Positions 1,768-16,052 of a stretch of DNA of 41,881 nt are shown here, in pieces; position 1 is the stretch's first letter, and the number at the start of each line of letters is the position of its first letter. Below the pieces are notes generated by a model. That model searched no databases, was not told the DNA's origin, and was given only the letters and a program-made list of their open reading frames with translations. This DNA comes from Octopus sinensis. Its lineage: Eukaryota. The translations under genes and the position numbers were made by a program. Where the stretch lies: positions 1 through 41,881 of the forward strand of contig NW_021836822.1 in assembly GCF_006345805.1 (NCBI RefSeq), in the 5' to 3' direction.

Positions 1768-2136
1768 AATCAGTGGCTAGTTCAGTTGTATACGAAGCTA
1801 AGGTCACTTCTGTTTTGCCACATGACGAAACTGATCAGGAAAATATATATTAGGTTATGTGAAAGTCACTTAAAAAAGATCGGTCAACCACCAATCTTCT
1901 TTCTGGCACGTAGAAAAGAAAAGCACTAAGCTTGCTACCCACTTCCGGAAATTAAAAGCCAAAAATGTCGAACGTCATCAGGTGGAGCATTGGACAAGTA
2001 CCTCACCAAACATTAATTAGTCAAGTAGGTGCTGGCTGTGTAAACCTAAGAACTCTGCCGACCCACTCATTTTAAGATCGGATTTTTAACAAGATGCAAG
2101 CATCATGACAAGTTTTTGCTGTCGAACTGGATGAGG
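1768..2136 (+). mobile_element. Penelope-like element, frameshifted GIY-YIG endonuclease C-terminal relic
   Basis: Joining frames by hand gives SSVVYEAKVTS...KIYIRLCESHLKK/RSVNHQSSF...STKLATHFRKLK...IRWSI...RCWLC...RCKHHDKFLLSNW. This matches the VY..YIG..KR..NH..SF..STxLxxHxWxLK..WSI..CxLC..CxH..KFLL pattern of Penelope-like GIY-YIG domains. Confidence 0.7.
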
Positions 2137-7330: not shown

Positions 7331-8029
7331 TTAGGTGAGAGAGAAATACTTTTAAATTCACACACATAATTAGTATGTATGTAGATATGTATGAGTGCGT
7401 GTGTGTATGTGTATGTATGTGTGTGCGTGTATGTGTGCTCATGTGTGGTTTGAGAGGAGACGATAGCGTCACTACCTTGAACCATTCTAGAAACAATGTT
7501 TGTTATGATATCGAAGACACGGTATTTATCACACAACGATTGATTGATTTTTTTTTTTTTTTGTAAATCATTCATATCGTCTATGGGAAGTCGAGATATA
7601 ATTGTATTGCGACAAACAAGAATTTACCATTCTAAGTGCATTTGGCACCTTCACACTTCGCATTCAAATTTACTTTTATTGCAGAACTAAAAATACATAG
7701 ATTATATTTACAGTTTTCGGAACACTTAACACTGTTTCTTCTCACCGGAAAATGGTTGTGCATTTAAAAAGCCGTGAGGAGAAGTCATTAGTACACTAAG
7801 ATAATTAGTATACTAAATCTACCATTCGCTTGTGTTAATTATACAAGCTACAGCTAATTAGCCGTTTACTGGTAATCAGCCAAAACACAGAGTAATTTAA
7901 CTGCATTATAAATACATTGCACACAGTCACAGCTGAGTGAGTGATAGTAATTAGAATGGACGTCCTCCCTGCTGGCGTAAAAGGATCGCTAGTTCAAATT
8001 GCTAATACAAGTTTCTTGGTCATATCGTA

Positions 8030-8480
8030 TATGAGGTGCGTTCCAGAAGTTTTGAGACGTTGTTAGGAAAGCCAGTTATGATTGTCCTGCATTATTGTAA
8101 TTTTTGTATATACTTCTTTTCTATGCAGTTTTTGTACATCTAATAAGATGACCTGTCGACTTTTGTTATTCCAGTCTGAAGGAGATGGCTGTTACAGCAC
8201 TTTGAATATACACTACCGAACACAGCTTGTCACAGCTGACTGTTTGATTGAATACAATCGGGACGTTAAGACAATTTGGAAGATCGCTATACAATAAGGT
8301 TTTGTGTTAAACTAGGCAAAAAACGCTAGAGAAACATATGAAATACCCCCAGAATGCTTATGCATTAACTTGCATGTGCCCAGTATCTGTTTTTCGCTGG
8401 CTGAAGAGGCCAGACAAAGCAAATTCACCGAAAAGCTTATGATGATCCCCGCTTTTCGACAGGAAGAGCATCACATGAAG
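8030..8480 (+). mobile_element. internally deleted mariner relic
   Basis: TIR-like start taTGAGGTGCGTTCCAGAAGT resembles the 16061 TIR. RYTIRFCVKLGK/NARETYE (~8285-8345) is a typical mariner transposase N-terminus, and KLMMI..FD resembles KVM..FFD. Confidence 0.65.
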
Positions 8481-8762
8481 TCGTGGGTTATACACTCATA
8501 CTCACACACTTGTGATATATATATTTATATATATATATACACACACACATATATATATATGTATGCATATATATATATGTGTGTGTGTGTGTGTTAGGAA
8601 TTACAAAGTTTTGCATGTTAGATAAACATGTAAAAGATATCTTTCATAGAATTTCTTCAGATAGAGAATCGAATAATACTCTGTATCTGTGTGTCTCTTT
8701 CTCTCTCATTTCTGTGTATGTGTCTGTATGTACGTGTGTGTGTGTGTGTGTGTGTATGTACG

Positions 8763-8793
<31 letters not shown>

Positions 8794-9180
8794 TGTGTGT
8801 GTGTGTGTGTTGTACACGTCTGTGAGGTTCCATGAACAACTGATACTCATTACAGAAGATTTTGTTCCAAGACATTTGATTCCATATTTATTAGCATATT
8901 TCTAGCATCGACATCAGGCGGTTTGTTGTTATAAGACAGTATAAAGACCGTTTTGAGTCTGGATTGAATAATCCAATGATGTATTTAATATAAGCTGTTC
9001 TGTGGACATTAGTATCATCAATCATTTACAACAGAGACTAATATTGAAGAAATTGACTGATGTTGTTGCTTTTATATAAGTTAAAACCACAACCAAGTAG
9101 CTGTCTATATAAAGCACTCTGCAGTAAAGGTCTTTCCAAAATATGTCATGCCCAACGTTGGTCGCTCGTCCACATATACC

Positions 9181-9413
9181 TATTTCTTTTCTACCCACAA
9201 GGGGCTAAACACAGAGGGGACAAACAAGGACAGACAAACGGATTAAGTCGATTACATCGACCCCAGTGCGTAACTGGTACTTATTTAATCGACCCCGAAA
9301 GGATGAAAGGCAAAGTCGACCTCGGCGGAATTTGAACTCAGAACGTAACGGCAGACGAAATACGGCTACGCATTTCGCCCGGCGTGCTAACGTTTCTGCC
9401 AGCACGCCGCCTT
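9181..9413 (-). mobile_element. family A SINE, full-length tail-1 monomer with ~20-bp TSD
   Basis: Intact A/B-box head (ggcggcgtgctggcagaaacgttagc...gagttcaaattcc). Flanks are gtcgctcgtccacatatacc (9161-9180) and gttgcttgtccacatatacc (9414-9433). Confidence 0.92.
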
Positions 9414-9610
9414 GTTGCTTGTCCACATATACCACAGTGTTTCTCTTTATGTTTTGTCACACGAAACTGTCCGTCAATAGATTAAGTATGCAACCAAATA
9501 GAATTGTATAATGGTAGTTGTGGTGGATTGGAAGATCAATAGATTGTCCGATAAACTATCTTGTAATATTAAGCTACCGCTAGGCCAGTGAGCTGGTAGG
9601 ATGGTTAGTA

Positions 9611-9873
9611 AAAAAAATAAGGAAATGCCCCCTTTTAAAGCCTAGCCAGGCTCATGGGCCAGGTTTCCAGGTTTCTATGGCGTATGTGTTCCCCAGCTGG
9701 ACGGGACGCCAGTCCATCGCAGCGTTACTCATTTTTGCCAACTAAGTGGACTGGAGGAACGTGAAATGAAGTGCTTTGCTCAAGAACACAACGCGTCGCC
9801 CGGTCCAGGAATCGAAACCATAATCTTACGATCATGGTGCTGACACCCTTACCACTAAGCCACGCGCCTCCAC
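9611..9873 (-). mobile_element. tRNA-derived SINE with V-domain-like core (family C), 13-bp TSD
   Basis: Head gtggaggcgcgtggcttagtgg...ggtttcgattcc. Core gcgatggactggcgtcccgtccag resembles the V-SINE central domain. TSD aggatggttagta (9598-9610) / aggatagttagta (9874-9886). Confidence 0.85.
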
Positions 9874-9971
9874 AGGATAGTTAGTACGCTGCGCAAAAAT
9901 GCTTAGCGGTATTTCGCGTGTCTTTATGTTCTAAGTTCAAATTCCGCCGAGGTCGACTTCGCCTTTTATTC

Positions 9972-10112
9972 TTATCTTGGAGATGAATATGTTATTCATT
10001 GTTCGCTGTATATGAGAGGGGAAATATTCGTCTAAATATATGACGACTGGGTACACACCATTCACAAGAATCAAACAGAACGAAAATGCTTTGACGTCCT
10101 CGTGAGTCCCTG
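9972..10112 (+). mobile_element. right arm of the 5488-5878 MITE family
   Basis: atgaatatgttattcattg...ttcgtctaa.tatatg.c.actgggtacac...gctttgacg..ctcgtgagtc aligns to 5749-5878. Confidence 0.8.
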
Positions 10113-10832
10113 CCCGGACGATGTTCTAGTTGAGGACTGGGGTCGTTATATTCGTCTTTACCCCTACCCGCGAACTTGATAGCCTCGTGCCAAAATCGGA
10201 AACCATTAAATTACAGATCTTTACATTCTGAGTTCGAATCCTGCTAATGTCCATTTTGCATATCCTTTATCCGATCTCGATTAGATAAAATACTATGGCG
10301 TCTGAATTAATATAATCGATTAAAACGCTTGAAGGTCATGTTTCCAGCATGGCCGCAGCCAAATGATGTAATCTGTACAGGCGAAGAGAGGTAACAAAGA
10401 CTCCACTAAGTCCCAGCTGCTATCATCTCTCACCGACCCAAACCATATAATGTGTAATATTCAGAAATTTAAGTACTCTAGGTTTTAATGGGTTATAATG
10501 AGCGACATACCCTATACATCAGTCCGTATTTTGTAACCTTTACAACAGTGTGATTTTCCAATTCCGACTCTGCAACGGCTTCTTTCTTCCTCAGAGGATC
10601 ACATTAAAATCTTGGAACAACGGAATAGCGGTAACCGATTTACTACCGAGTGTGAAAAATAAAATATGTTGACAGGTAATCATTGTATCATTGATGTCTT
10701 CACCGCTGTAGCTAGATTCTTGAACTTCACAGTTGCCATGCCATCTATGATATGCTTCCACACTAACTACATCACCGTCTGTGCTTATTGATAAGCCAGT
10801 CCATAATAGCAAAAAAGGTTGATCACACATCC

Positions 10833-11273
10833 TGGTGTGGTAAGTAGCTTGCTTATCAACCGCATGGTTCCGGATTCAGTCCCACTACGTGGCACCATGG
10901 GCAAGTGTCTTCTACTATAGCTTTGAGCCGACCAAAGCCTTGTGAGTGGATTTGGTAGACGGAAACTGAAAGAAGCCCATCGTATGTATAAATATATATA
11001 TATGTATCTATGTATGTATGTATGTATGTATGTATGTATGTATGTGTGTGTATATGCTTGTGTGTCTGTGTTTGTCCCCGAAATCGCTTGACAACCGATG
11101 CTGGTGTGTTTACATCCCCGTAACTTAGCAGTTCGGCAAAAGAGAGGATAGAATAAGTACTAGGCTTACAAACAATAAGTCCTGGGGTCGATTTGGTCGA
11201 CTAAAGGCGGTGCTCCAGCATGGCCACAGTCAAATGACTGAAACAAGTAAAAGAGTAAAAGAGTAAAAGAGTA
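10833..11273 (+). mobile_element. family B SINE with internal (TATG)n and LINE-like tail ending in (GTAAAAGA)n
   Basis: tRNA-like head, conserved body, and tail ggcggtgctccagcatggccacagtcaaatgactgaaac followed by short tandem repeats. Confidence 0.92.
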
Positions 11274-11494
11274 ATATCATGATGAAGGGTTATTAGTATC
11301 TTTTACTAAAACTCGCCAGGGAAACTAAGAATACTCTTTGTAGCGCATTTATTACATGTAGCGAAGGAGCAAAGAGGACTTTTACAAACTGATCGCGCGC
11401 CAAACTTTATGGTACGATTCAAATACTTGGTCACAATACCAAAGGCTTGACGGCTTGAGATATACTGATTCGTTATCGACAGCTATGTTTTTAT

Positions 11495-11764
11495 ATTATT
11501 TACATTATTTACATCCGACGGATATTTGTCCTCATCTTGTTTGTTGTTAACACAACGTTTCGGCTGATATACCTTCCAGCCTTCTTCAGGTGTCTTGGGG
11601 AAAATTTCGAACCTGGGTTCTCATTGCTAAGGTATTTTTCGATGTTATTATTAGTACTATTATTGTTATTGTTATTGTTCACGTCACTGCTTGGAATCGA
11701 ACTCGGAATCTTGGGGTTAGTAGCCCGCGCTCTTAACCACTACGCCATATGCCCGTGGGCATAT
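11495..11764 (-). mobile_element. tRNA-headed non-autonomous retroelement carrying a hammerhead ribozyme
   Basis: Minus strand: hairpin ATATGCCC-AC-GGGCATAT, A box TGGCGTAGTGG, B box GAGTTCGATTCC, (AAT/AAC) spacer, hammerhead motif, and a 3' (ATGTAAATA)2 end. Confidence 0.75.
11549..11594 (-). ncRNA. minimal type I hammerhead ribozyme (Penelope-type)
   Basis: Minus strand reads GACAC-CTGAAGA-A-GGCTG-gaaggtatat-CAGCC-GAAA-CG-TT-GTGTT. Both core boxes are present, with a 5-bp stem II, a 5-bp stem I (one G-U) and palindromic AACGTT in place of stem III. Confidence 0.75.
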
Positions 11765-11999
11765 ATTTAAACTATGTTTGTTTGTTTTTTAAATGGGATG
11801 GGAATAAATTATGATATTAGAAAGCCTAATTGTGAGACAAATTATAAGAATGTAAACACGTTTCTTGCATATTTCCTATGTACGTAAAAACTGAGTAGAG
11901 TCTCCTGAGAGACCGATTCTCAGTTCGTTGACCACTCCTCAGAGTAAACGCATATATGTTTGCTTGGTGTATACAACTCGTGTATGTGGATGCAGGCAT

Positions 12000-12056
<57 letters not shown>

Positions 12057-13110
12057 TGTGTGAGTGTATGTGTGCGTGTGTGTGTGAGTGTATGTGTGAG
12101 TGTGTCCAGAGACCGAAAAACAGATATGAAGAGATTGATGAAAGGATAGAGAGAAGCGACAAAAGCAGAGAAAATAGATAAAATATTTGAAAGACATCCT
12201 AAGCAAACGATACAATAAGTCACGTGGCCGAATAAAATTCTCAAGAGACGTGTCATATGAGTAAACGAGAAAAAAAATAACAGATCAATGTCGTTTTCTC
12301 TGCAATTATTGGTTTTATGGTCTCTGTCATAATTGTAATTTCATTTTGATGTTTTATTAAAAGCATTTAAGAAAAAAATTATTGAGAAAACATTGGTTTA
12401 TTTTGATGGGGGTGTATGGTGACCTAAGAAACACACGGTACGAGTGTGTATGTATGAAAGAGATGGAAAGATCATGTGAATGCCTGTGTGTGTGTGGTAA
12501 TCGTGATTGTAAACAGGTAGTCAATAGGTTAGAGAAATTGTGAATAAATATTTCATTATATATTTATATATATCATATATATATAACATATATACATTAT
12601 ATATAAATATTTCATTATATATGTATATAAACATATATGTGCATGTGTGTGTATATAAATGTGCTTGGATGTATGTATCAGTATATATGTGTGCGTGTAT
12701 TTGTTTCTAGTGTATACACGCAGATTTTCTTATCTACATTCACATATGGGATGATTTGAAATATATCCTATTTCAATGAGTGGAATTTCTGTGTGTATAC
12801 GTGTGTTGTGTATGCGGGTATATGTGTATGTGTAGGTGCGCGCATGCGCGGCTGTGTGCGCTTGCGTGTGTGTGTATGTATGTATATATAAATATATATA
12901 TATATAGCATTATTGTTATTGCTATTATTAGTATTCGACGCATAAATGTGTATAATGTTATGCGTGTATATTCACACTCGATCAGATATACATATGTATT
13001 CCTGTATGGTTTATTCACAAATACGTGTTTAAGTATGTATCTGTATTTCCTTTCCATTCACACTTCCAATCTAGATTTACGAGTATGCATATATATATAT
13101 ATATATATGT

Positions 13111-13148
<38 letters not shown>

Positions 13149-13154
13149 GTGTGC

Positions 13155-13186
<32 letters not shown>

Positions 13187-13801
13187 ACATATATATGTAT
13201 ATGTATATATATTTGTATATATATACATATATATATGTATATGTATATATATTTGTATATATATATGTGCGTGTGTATACTTATATAGAAAGAGAGAGAA
13301 GAGGAAGGAGAGAGGGAGAGAGGGAGAGCCTTAACAACACATACAAAATAAATGCACGTCTCTAACATAAATAACACACATTTATCTCTACCAGGAGCTA
13401 TTTATCAAATATTTGAATGCACGCATATTCACAATCAGATGTATAAACGCATGCACATACGCACACATCTATATATTCTAAATGTATATGTATATATATA
13501 TATACTCACACCCACATACATTCATATATATATACATTGTATACACATATGAATGCACGCATATTCACAATCAGATGTATACACGCATGCACATACGCAC
13601 ACATCTATATATTCTAAATGTATATGTGTATATATATATATACTCACAATCACTGGACACAATCACTAAGAAACATGTATTGTTTCAACTGATACACATA
13701 CATACATAATAAATACATGTGTATATACACGCATTTAAGTGTGTATGTACATACATATATAGGTGTGTATATGTATATATATATATACATATATGTGTGT
13801 G

Positions 13802-13833
<32 letters not shown>

Positions 13834-14179
13834 TGTATGTAGTATGTATGTATGTTTGTTTGTGTGTATGTGTACACAGAAGCAAACAGGGAAAGATATA
13901 CGCACATACACAAATCTGTAAGATATGGGTATTGATATACACATATATATCTATATATATATATATTATATATATATATATACATTTACATGCACGTACA
14001 CACCAGACACACACATACGCATACATACACATATATATATTTGTGTGTGTATGTGACGAGAGAGACAGAGAGAAGGGGAGAGGTGTGTACATATAAGCGT
14101 ATATGCACATACATATAGCGAGAGAGGAGGGAAAGAGACAGAGAGAAAGAAAAAAGGAAAGAAAGAAAGAAAGCAAGAC

Positions 14180-14217
<38 letters not shown>

Positions 14218-14220
14218 GAA
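12000..14220. repeat. compound (TA)/(TG)/(TATG)/(GAAA) microsatellite-rich region
   Basis: Read directly; it produces the many YI/CV/HT pseudo-ORFs. Confidence 0.85.
13414..13648. repeat. ~97-bp direct duplication (period 136)
   Basis: tgaatgcacgcatattcacaatcagatgtata...tactcaca occurs at 13414-13510 and again at 13550-13648. Confidence 0.9.
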
Positions 14221-14789
14221 AAGAAAGAGGAAGGGAACGAGAAAGATCAAAACCCATCAAAAGTTTGGCTCAGACCAGGAATGGTGGAAATAATATTCTC
14301 GCCTCGCACATAATCAAATCGCAGCAGCTTTAGTATAGAGAAACGGCGCGTTGAGTCGCTTATGACGTTAAACAAATCTAATCTGTAAATTATGCATTAA
14401 ATTGTCTTGAACTAGTGCCATTTCCTCTGTAAACGGCACCAGTAACTTGTACGATAACGCCTTCAATCAATAGTTTTACCACTTCATACTGACAAACTAA
14501 ACTATTATGATACTAAAGATATCAACACAAACACTTACTCACATCAACACACACACACGTATATGAATGTATATATATATATATACACGCGCACAAACAC
14601 ATACATACACACACGTATTTATATATATATATATATATAACACTTTGAAAACAGCGATGATACATTTCGAAGTCAATATATATTTACGAGGTGTTTGTCG
14701 GTGGCGGCGGCGGCGGCGGCGGTGGTAGTGGTGGTGGTGGTTGGTAGTGGTGGAGTTGAGGGGTGGCGGGTAGCTGGTTGAGTTTCTTC

Positions 14790-14868
14790 TTGTTATCATT
14801 ATCATTATTACTATTGTTATTTCCATTATTATTATTATTATCATTATCATTATTATTATTATTAATAC

Positions 14869-14901
<33 letters not shown>

Positions 14902-14958
14902 CATTATTATTATTATTATTATTATTATCATCATTATCACCATCATTATCATTGTTAC

Positions 14959-15001
<43 letters not shown>

Positions 15002-15103
15002 ATTATTATCATTATTATTATCATTATTATTATCATCATCATAATCATTGTTACTGTTATATTATTATTATTATTATTATAATTATTATTATTATTGTTA
15101 TTA

Positions 15104-15134
<31 letters not shown>

Positions 15135-15160
15135 CCCTATCATTATTATTATTGTTATTT
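14790..15160. repeat. (ATT/ATC)n microsatellite
   Basis: Read directly. Confidence 0.95.
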
Positions 15161-15949
15161 ATTACTGCTGTTCTTAATATTATTCTTATTATGTTTTTCG
15201 TTTCGTTGGCAAACCTCGATGTTACTAAAAGGTAAATTTTCGTGGGGGGGGGGAGGAGAATTATTGGGGGGTTTTTCGAGGGTGGTTGTTTGCGGGGGAT
15301 TGTTTGCTCTTCTTTCATGTTGTTTATATTTTATCTTTTATTACTTTTTTATTTTTGTTTTTTATTTGGAAACGGTAAAGAAAAGCAAAGAATTTGCTGA
15401 AAGGATGAAGTATTAGAATCATGAAACGAATTCAAGATGGATTGTAAATTCTTACTCTTTGTAAAGAATTTCCTTACATTCCCTTCATCCCCACCCCGCC
15501 GATCACCCTCCTCCGCCTTATCCTCCTCCTCCTCATCATCATCATCCCCCCTCATCTTCATCTTCCTTGCCTCCTCCTTCTCACCTCCTCTTCATTTCCT
15601 CAACGCCTTCCTCACTCCCCTCTTTCACCCTCATCTTCATTCTCATCACCCTCTTCTTCCTCAGTCATCCGTATCATTATCATCATCATCACCATCACCC
15701 TCCACGTTATCATCACACTCCTCCTCCGCATCAACGCCAACTCCTACCCCTGAAGCAGGAGTAGGAGTACGAGGAATTACTTTACATTACATTTATTTAC
15801 ATGATTTTAGAAACATTTTGATCCATTTGTCATTGTTTTTCCAGGTAAATTTATATTCAAACATGTTAGTATTTTATCCAGAAGCCTATACATTTCCATA
15901 AAGGTTTCAGTTCACACAGACGACTTTAATAGAACTTTTGATTTTTATC

Positions 15950-16052
15950 GATGTTGGGGTCCCTCAAATCGTGGTGTTTTCTAGAGAGCGCGATGCGTTT
16001 GTGTGCTTGAGCATGACACAGCGTCTAAAGTTACTCCAGTTTACTCAGCTGA
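15950..16052 (+). mobile_element. degenerate family C-like SINE head, ending at the mariner
   Basis: gcgatgcgtttgtgtgcttgagca...gttactccagtttactcagctg resembles the reverse complement of ~9740-9800. Confidence 0.5.

What the first reader, a model, noticed from the sequence alone, without database searches (positions are those of the whole stretch)
11495..11764. tRNA-promoter + hammerhead ribozyme element: candidate Penelope-mobilised SINE or Pol III retrozyme
Seen: on the minus strand a tRNA-type internal promoter (A box TGGCGTAGTGG, B box GAGTTCGATTCC) is followed ~100 nt later by GACAC CTGAAGA A GGCTG(loop)CAGCC GAAA CGTT GTGTT. This is a minimal type I hammerhead with stems I and II formed and a palindromic AACGTT replacing stem III. 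The element has no LINE-type tail and no obvious TSD. Established: stem-III-less hammerheads are typical of Penelope-like element pseudo-LTRs and are thought to act as dimers. SINEs normally borrow LINE tails; the schistosome Sm-alpha repeat is a rare tRNA-plus-hammerhead precedent. Inference: this is a self-cleaving Pol III element that parasitises Penelope RT/GIY-YIG machinery. A Penelope endonuclease relic lies in the same window (~1768-2136).
Basis: partly seen in the sequence, partly recalled or inferred. Interest (0 to 1): 0.85.

Follow-up and report, generated by a model that had tools for sequence, protein, structure and literature searches.

The report
Penelope retrotransposon with tRNA-derived end repeat
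This short repeat is the stand-alone end piece of a protein-coding Penelope-type jumping gene whose end repeat starts with a tRNA-derived promoter sequence and holds a hammerhead ribozyme motif, and the gene's lack of the usual stop signals hints that it may be read by the polymerase that normally makes tRNAs.

Summary
Observation confirmed. A box, B box and minimal hammerhead lie where stated, in a roughly 293-nt repeat (1,932 exact 35-mers) with a tRNA-Arg head. Copies carry the Penelope-like element (PLE) footprint: an inverted piece upstream in 43 of 73 sites (downstream 0), a ~35-nt tail on exactly one arm in 31 of 34 pairs, and ~12-bp target duplications. The partner is in the same genome: the whole repeat, head included, is the pseudo-LTR of a 2.65-kb Poseidon-type PLE whose 835-codon ORF starts inside it. 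So it is not a SINE that borrowed a tail, and not a retrozyme: 5' ends ignore the cut site (1 of 38). The relic at 1768-2136 belongs to another PLE family. Of 45 pieces reaching the head, 40 stop there. The PLE majority has no T4 run on its sense strand (4.8 expected; 1 of 37 related PLEs also has none), hinting at Pol III transcription of a coding element; untested. The scan noted this SINE-like family before on other DNA. I found no paper on it.

The parts
11770..11779 (-). Candidate target-site duplication, upstream copy
   Evidence: 8 identical nt, 9 of 10, with 11481-11490; family TSDs are mostly 10-13 nt; 5 nt of filler lie between it and the element
11747..11764 (-). 5' hairpin ATATGCCC-AC-GGGCATAT; GCCCAC (11760-11755) equals the last bases of the PLE 3' UTR, the rest is probably a short fold-back
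   Evidence: sequence; UTR/head junction in ORF-bearing copies; 30 of 45 head-reaching pieces have an inverted piece directly upstream
11680..11754 (-). tRNA-Arg(ACG)-derived head, start of the pseudo-LTR
   Evidence: alignment score 62 to this genome's ACG-anticodon tRNA gene (L221), shuffles 25.8 +/- 4.5, maximum 47 of 2000; other tRNAs not compared
11737..11747 (-). A box
   Evidence: sequence; matches the A+B pattern that also finds the real tRNA
11694..11702 (-). B box
   Evidence: sequence
11645..11680 (-). (AAT/AAC)n tract of variable length
   Evidence: alignment of 29 copies
11491..11624 (-). First ~45 codons of the PLE ORF (ATG at 11624-11622); this copy has one extra T (T4 at 11604-11601) that shifts the frame and could end a Pol III transcript
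   Evidence: same module opens a 391-codon natural frame in L240/L270; window translation
11549..11594 (-). Minimal type I hammerhead motif (helices I and II, no helix III), predicted cut after 11554
   Evidence: features listed in PMC4209133; cleavage untested
11529..11536 (-). 5' arm (GATGAGGA) of a 3' hairpin whose other arm lies in the tail missing from this copy
   Evidence: pair probability 0.7-0.99 in the family majority; same arms in the sister family
11491..11512 (-). GTAAATAAT repeats, the short (tail-less) 3' end class
   Evidence: 3' ends are bimodal: 245-275 in 37 of 73, 289-293 in 34 of 73, 2 shorter
11481..11490 (-). Candidate target-site duplication, downstream copy
1838..2053 (+). 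Broken GIY-YIG-like relic of an unrelated, older PLE family; not the partner
   Evidence: 25 other genomic matches at 37-55% identity; no Pfam hit; no match to the partner endonuclease

Best explanation
The element is a solo copy of the ~293-nt pseudo-LTR (tRNA-Arg-derived head, AAT tract, ORF start, hammerhead motif, optional tail) of a 2.65-kb Penelope/Poseidon-type retrotransposon of the same genome, and it was most likely pasted by that element's own reverse transcriptase-endonuclease from an RNA that probably begins at the tRNA head. [quoted passage not shown] Inferred steps: (1) the A/B boxes start transcription a few bases upstream of the head, probably by Pol III; (2) the PLE protein makes a ~12-nt staggered cut in AT-rich DNA; (3) both cut ends prime reverse transcription at two fixed internal sites about 90-100 and 130 nt past the ribozyme core, as shown in vitro for the anole Poseidon element; (4) because those sites lie only ~260-290 nt from the RNA 5' end, most products are pseudo-LTR-only copies that look like SINEs, while initiation in the downstream repeat gives ORF-bearing copies; (5) the two cDNAs meet head to head, helped by the near-palindrome GCCC-AC-GGGC, giving one long and one short arm inside one TSD. 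The uncut RNA is the template; the ribozyme is probably off during copying. Solo copies with head and tail may seed further copies.
For: Module runs in frame into a PLE ORF at G000:C6:12.22 Mb, 95% identical over 171 nt. Of 20 extended ORF loci, 3 begin at head positions 1-4 and 7 continue from the ORF end through a short UTR into the head again. [quoted passage not shown] Solo and ORF copies have the same age, median 6.0% and 6.1% divergence, and share diagnostic variants. Footprint in 73 sites: inverted piece upstream 43, downstream 0; tail on exactly one arm in 31 of 34 pairs, Fisher p=2e-6; shared flank word of 10 nt or more in 15 of 34 pairs against 0.16 in mismatched pairs; this is the layout described in PMC8557442 and explained in PMC11167929. 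40 of 45 head-reaching pieces stop there. UTR 35-mer just upstream: 385 exact matches against 1,932 for the ribozyme. No T4 run on the sense strand of the 2,685-nt majority; 1 of 37 related frames has none, pooled observed/expected 1.47.
Against: No transcript start, Pol III occupancy or cleavage was observed: three unstranded RNA runs of a related species (one study) show depth that follows copy number and no defined ends in the repeat. The pile-up is partly fold-back: 30 of the 45 pieces abut an inverted piece (some pairs counted on both arms); without them 10 stop and 5 go on. The T4 deficit is P=0.0075 (base shuffle), 0.02 (synonymous shuffle) but 0.08 (dinucleotide model), and compares a majority sequence with single natural copies. 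A named octopus protein appears to use the GTAAAT site as a splice donor, which is a Pol II use of one copy. Pfam did not call GIY-YIG on the broken C-terminal piece. No intact natural full ORF was seen. A coding Pol III RNA would be uncapped (established knowledge), so translation is unexplained.
Confidence: 0.8

Rival explanations
1. True PLE-dependent SINE: most short copies descend from solo Pol III masters that hijack the PLE enzyme in trans; the autonomous element merely shares or later captured the unit.
For: Short copies outnumber UTR-bearing ones about 5 to 1 by exact 35-mers; 23 of 73 sites keep a full A+B match; none of the 29 closest relatives of the window copy has PLE body beside it; an older tRNA-headed sister family showed no clear ORF in 33 loci.
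Against: Same age and shared diagnostic variants in solo and ORF-linked repeats; internal initiation near the 5' end of the PLE's own RNA yields the same product; no solo-specific lineage was demonstrated.
Confidence: 0.3
2. Ordinary 5'-truncated PLE stubs: the tRNA piece is a passive passenger in a Pol II pseudo-LTR, and the pile-up at the head comes from fold-back at the GCCC-AC-GGGC palindrome.
For: 30 of 45 head-reaching pieces are fold-back junctions; RNA depth rises towards the 3' end as for truncated copies; Drosophila Penelope uses a TATA-less internal promoter like that of LINEs (PMC2377424).
Against: 10 plain ends and 3 full-length elements also start at the head; A and B boxes are intact in the majority; T4 runs are absent only here and in 1 of 37 relatives.
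Confidence: 0.2
3. Pol III retrozyme: self-cleavage releases monomers or circles that are reverse-transcribed, as proposed for Sm-alpha and metazoan retrozymes.
For: The motif has all four hallmarks of PLE minimal hammerheads; promoter-plus-hammerhead order recalls Sm-alpha.
Against: 1 of 38 internal 5' ends at the cut, 2.7 expected; 2 of 73 sites with a tandem piece; helix I not predicted in full RNA; no compensatory changes between families; no reads piling at the cut (weak: unstranded cDNA library).
Confidence: 0.05
4. LINE-mobilised SINE that picked up a Penelope fragment.
For: LINE ends with restriction-like endonuclease C-termini sit in the AAT tract of some copies.
Against: Fixed two-class 3' ends without a simple-repeat tail, two-armed insertions with both 3' ends outward, and an ORF-bearing PLE with the same ends. 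The LINE ends lie inside the tract, as insertions into it.
Confidence: 0.02

Closest known systems
Penelope/Poseidon PLEs and their pseudo-LTRs (anole PAc, PMC11167929, parts 1-2 of 4 read; D. virilis Penelope, PMC2377424, passages; PMC8557442, passages)
   Same: Single RT + C-terminal GIY-YIG-type ORF, ORF start overlapping the hammerhead region, inverted 5'-truncated arm, 30-40-nt one-sided tail, two internal 3' end classes a similar distance past the ribozyme.
   Different: The pseudo-LTR opens with a tRNA-derived A/B-box head; the sense strand lacks T4 runs; pseudo-LTR-only copies dominate and stop at the head. Only 2 of 80 related metagenome PLE loci had a sense A+B match, neither within 400 nt upstream of a detected hammerhead.
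Schistosome Sm-alpha / Sj-alpha (seen through PMC6765202 and PMC2770079, passages; originals by title only)
   Same: tRNA-type Pol III promoter followed by a type I hammerhead, tens of thousands of copies.
   Different: Sm-alpha is described as tandem, self-cleaving and without a named autonomous partner in those passages; this element is dispersed, head-to-head, has a minimal ribozyme and is the end repeat of a coding PLE.
Cassandra, Helenus, Ajax (TRIMp3; PMC10886601, passages)
   Same: Small-RNA-derived Pol III promoter inside a terminal repeat.
   Different: Those are non-autonomous LTR elements of at most ~1.3 kb, and the paper argues their autonomous partners must use Pol II; here the repeat belongs to an autonomous, ORF-bearing PLE.
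Metazoan non-LTR retrozymes and non-autonomous PLEs such as MRC1 (bioRxiv 10.64898/2026.07.22.740005, parts 1-3 of 5; PMC7761336 and PMC8557442, passages)
   Same: Non-coding hammerhead repeats related to PLE pseudo-LTRs.
   Different: Those are head-to-tail arrays said to lack promoters; this has a promoter-like head and few tandems.
Octopus tRNA-derived SINEs of Ohshima and Okada 1994 (title seen in reference lists only; names OK, OR1, OR2 and their tRNA-Arg origin are recalled)
   Same: Possibly the same repeat under an older name: tRNA-Arg-like head, octopus host (named protein hits).
   Different: Could not be compared; no sequence was available to the tools.

Membership tests
PLE pseudo-LTR (Penelope/Poseidon) | Direct repeat flanking one RT + GIY-YIG ORF | tested here: met
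   unit 2,652 nt, repeat at both ends; RVT_1 hit; endonuclease region 52% identical to homologue P0152, though no Pfam GIY-YIG call on the broken piece
PLE pseudo-LTR (Penelope/Poseidon) | Inverted 5'-truncated copy upstream and 30-40-nt tail at one end only | tested here: met
   43 of 73 upstream, 0 downstream; 31 of 34 one-sided
PLE pseudo-LTR (Penelope/Poseidon) | No CX2-5CxxC linker before the endonuclease (separates Poseidon from Neptune/Nematis) | tested here: met
   no such motif in the majority ORF; no RT tree with named clade references was built
Minimal type I hammerhead of PLEs | Core CUGANGA/GAAA, extra nucleotide before helix II, G10.1-C11.1 pair, palindromic 15.2-16.2 | tested here: met
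   sequence against the list in PMC4209133; descriptor hit, 0 of 200 controls
Minimal type I hammerhead of PLEs | Covariation in helices I and II | tested here: inconclusive
   helix II identical in two families while its loop differs at 4 of 10 places; helix I 3' strand changes without compensation; no Rfam hit
Minimal type I hammerhead of PLEs | Self-cleavage as dimer or with protein | not testable with these tools
   bench test needed
SINE (SINEBase definition, PMC3531059) | Under 700 bp with tRNA-derived head and A/B boxes | tested here: met
SINE (SINEBase definition, PMC3531059) | Reverse-transcribed by a partner LINE; simple-repeat tail | tested here: not met
   partner is a PLE; two fixed 3' ends
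SINE (SINEBase definition, PMC3531059) | Independent non-autonomous lineage | tested here: inconclusive
   same age and shared variants with ORF-linked repeats; no full subfamily analysis
SINE (SINEBase definition, PMC3531059) | Transcribed by Pol III | not testable with these tools
   only indirect signs; RNA runs uninformative
Non-LTR retrozyme | Head-to-tail arrays of two or more ribozyme units | tested here: not met
   2 of 73 sites with a same-strand piece downstream
Non-LTR retrozyme | Unit boundaries at the cleavage site or circular RNA | tested here: not met
   1 of 38 internal 5' ends within 4 nt of the cut; circles not testable

The most novel reading that the evidence does not exclude
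An autonomous, protein-coding retrotransposon that is transcribed end to end by RNA polymerase III from a tRNA-derived promoter in its pseudo-LTR, has purged Pol III terminators from a 2.5-kb ORF, and sheds its own 5' end as a SINE-like family of ten thousand or more copies through two-site internal priming: a direct route by which a Penelope element gives birth to SINEs.
Probability: 0.4. Interest if true: 0.9.

Novelty: new variant of a known kind. Interest (0 to 1): 0.72.

Why it matters
SINEs are defined as LINE passengers, and Pol III promoters in terminal repeats are described for non-autonomous elements only in what I read (PMC10886601). Here a coding Penelope element carries the tRNA head itself, so one family links SINE-like repeats, PLE pseudo-LTRs and hammerheads. 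It offers thousands of short, simple insertions to test the unresolved PLE integration mechanism (two priming sites, two arms, one TSD) and a clear prediction that a coding retrotransposon can run on Pol III. It also suggests that part of what octopus repeat libraries call SINE is PLE end repeat.

Tried and rejected
Partner search that failed first: 20 GIY-YIG loci and 18 extended loci (mostly Neptune-type by their Cys linker, label recalled) have their own hammerheads and no match to the 3' module; 20 loci of the window relic's family likewise; 30 of 156 head-less pattern hits showed no shared new upstream sequence; 7 loop-variant hits were ordinary copies; protein searches with the module returned only short or chimeric gene calls. 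The relic alone found no public homologue and no Pfam family. Rfam gave no hammerhead or tRNA hit. Sequencing runs: no RNA holder listed; laid runs are unstranded and show no ends in the repeat, so they count neither way on Pol III or cleavage. My first A/B-box pattern failed its positive control and was corrected. The first DNA-alignment attempt for covariation was out of register and was used only by eye. The top hits are biased towards two-armed copies, so architecture counts use the ribozyme-anchored sample instead: 73 of the first 74 listed places on contig C1 (of 1,932; one skipped because already fetched), which favours young copies; L137a/b look like a local duplication. Junction spacers AC/GT/AT could not separate annealing from CpG decay.

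Full report
Observation. The A box, B box and minimal hammerhead are at the stated places on the minus strand. A descriptor for the ribozyme hits only this site in the window and none of 200 Markov controls; the isolated motif folds with helices I and II. It shows the four features that PMC4209133 lists for PLE minimal hammerheads. Rfam has no hit for it. The head aligns to this genome's ACG-anticodon tRNA gene with score 62 against a shuffle maximum of 47; other tRNAs were not compared.

Family. The genome (2.72 Gb) holds 1,932 exact matches to a 35-nt ribozyme pattern, control 0; simple decay arithmetic gives about 8,000-16,000 before allowing for CpG loss. The unit is about 293 nt. Runs labelled as seven organisms hold part of its words, and named protein hits place it in Octopus sinensis and O. 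bimaculoides, so the host is inferred to be an octopus. An older sister family shares ribozyme, 3' hairpin, tail and a tRNA-like head.

Insertion footprint. I took 73 of the first 74 listed ribozyme sites on contig C1. An inverted piece of the element lies upstream in 43 and downstream in 0. The 3' ends fall in two classes, 245-275 (37) and 289-293 (34), with 2 shorter. In 34 two-armed insertions the ~35-nt tail is on exactly one arm in 31, on both in 1, on neither in 2 (Fisher p=2e-6). The outer flanks share a word of 10 nt or more in 15 of 34 pairs (one is a TA run) against 0.16 in mismatched pairs. PMC8557442 describes this layout for PLEs, and PMC11167929 shows in vitro that the tail lies between two internal reverse-transcription start sites. 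The window copy is a tail-less arm with a short 5' hairpin and a candidate 10-bp TSD with one mismatch.

The partner. Searches among other PLE families failed. The 3' module has an open frame in both families. Searching the genome with a related peptide gave a locus where the module opens a 391-codon frame of PLE type. That ORF has 581 first-look candidates. In its copies the repeat lies in front of the ORF and again behind it, after a short UTR ending in GCCCAC. Of 20 extended loci, 3 start at head positions 1-4 and 7 run from the ORF end into the head. The in-script majority has an open 835-codon frame from an ATG at repeat position 130, with RT and GIY-YIG-type motifs and no Cys linker; one piece hits RVT_1; 112 public homologues are nearly all RT proteins, the best sharing the ribozyme-encoded N-terminus. 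Solo and ORF copies are equally old (6.0% and 6.1%) and share variants. So the element is the pseudo-LTR of a Poseidon-type PLE; the clade label rests on domain order and the missing linker, not on a tree. The relic at 1768-2136 matches a different family and not this one; no partner body is in the window.

Why so many short copies. Of 45 pieces that reach the first 12 bases of the repeat, 5 continue into the PLE UTR, 30 abut an inverted piece and 10 simply end. A 35-mer just upstream of the head has 385 exact matches against 1,932. The simplest reading is an RNA 5' end at the head: internal priming 260-290 nt downstream then yields repeat-only copies, from the PLE's own RNA or from solo copies. 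Fold-back at the palindrome may inflate the pile-up, and some pairs are counted on both arms.

Pol III hint. The majority unit has no run of four T on the sense strand in 2,685 nt: expected 4.8 (base shuffle, P=0.0075), 2.9 (synonymous shuffle of the ORF, P=0.02), 2.5 (dinucleotide model, P=0.08). Two other PLE ORFs of this genome have 9 and 10. Of 80 related metagenome loci, 43 had a long intact frame and 37 an expectation of 3 or more; 1 of these has none, and pooled observed/expected is 1.47. Decayed natural copies of the partner have 0-1.3 per kb against a control median of 4.6. This is suggestive only. RNA reads of one study in a related species follow copy number and show no ends. One named protein seems to splice out of a copy at GTAAAT.

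Ribozyme role. Internal 5' ends do not favour the cut site (1 of 38, 2.7 expected), tandems are rare, and helix I is predicted to be sequestered in the full RNA. For the anole element uncut RNA is the main template and cleavage needs protein. A retrozyme life cycle is therefore unlikely here.

Known or new. The footprint and minimal hammerhead are known PLE traits. Promoter-plus-hammerhead has a precedent in Sm-alpha, and small-RNA promoters in terminal repeats in Cassandra, Helenus and Ajax, all non-autonomous. Ten full-text searches (two searches returned 0 papers) showed no tRNA-headed PLE or PLE-dependent SINE. Read: parts 1-3 of 5 of the 2026 retrozyme preprint, parts 1-2 of PMC4209133, PMC11167929 and PMC13282606, passages of PMC8557442, PMC7761336, PMC3531059, PMC8967140, PMC2770079, PMC6765202, PMC2377424, PMC10886601, PMC5786205; no supplements; Repbase, Dfam and the 1994 octopus SINE paper were not available, so the repeat may already have a name. 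Earlier notes of this scan reached the SINE-on-Penelope reading on other DNA, and one called it the end repeat with a tRNA-like promoter inside; I saw them after my footprint counts and together with or after finding the partner.

Verdict. Real, high-copy, PLE-mobilised; best filed as a new variant of Penelope/Poseidon elements with a tRNA-derived pseudo-LTR. Interest 0.72; 0.9 if Pol III transcription of the coding element is shown.

Noticed in passing
L113, L161, L115, L120, L137 (AAT tract upstream of the ribozyme): 5 of 73 sampled copies have the 3' end of one of two LINE families directly before the AAT tract; 4 translate to C-termini like restriction-type endonuclease LINEs (Dong/R4-like, label recalled), probably insertions into the tract.
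   Followed up: partly
L190-L219, L243, L253: Older sister family with a longer spacer, GUA cleavage triplet, same 3' hairpin and tail, inverted arms and a tRNA-like head; no clear ORF partner in 33 loci.
   Followed up: partly
proteins P0004-P0151 (ENA and other assemblies): A third relative from other organisms appears as short spurious gene calls, often in ~114-nt partial tandems; its reading frame is in register with the two families here.
   Followed up: no
protein P0001: A named Octopus sinensis protein isoform starts with 37 codons of this repeat, apparently spliced near the GTAAAT site onto a cysteine-rich receptor-like sequence: possible exonisation.
   Followed up: no
G000:C2:3.12-3.16 Mb (L223-L232): Tandem array of dozens of ACG-anticodon tRNA genes at ~206-nt spacing.
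   Followed up: no
L052-L061: Young Neptune-type PLE families with intact 775-883-codon frames, some with a second upstream frame and a hammerhead-like motif with a long loop on both strands.
   Followed up: partly
window 1768-2136; L171-L189: Old GIY-YIG-like family with a CxLC motif (Hydra-clade-like, label recalled), all copies broken.
   Followed up: partly
L320 (metagenome contig): The one related PLE frame with no T4 run (1,419 nt, 3.3 expected); no A/B box seen near it.
   Followed up: partly
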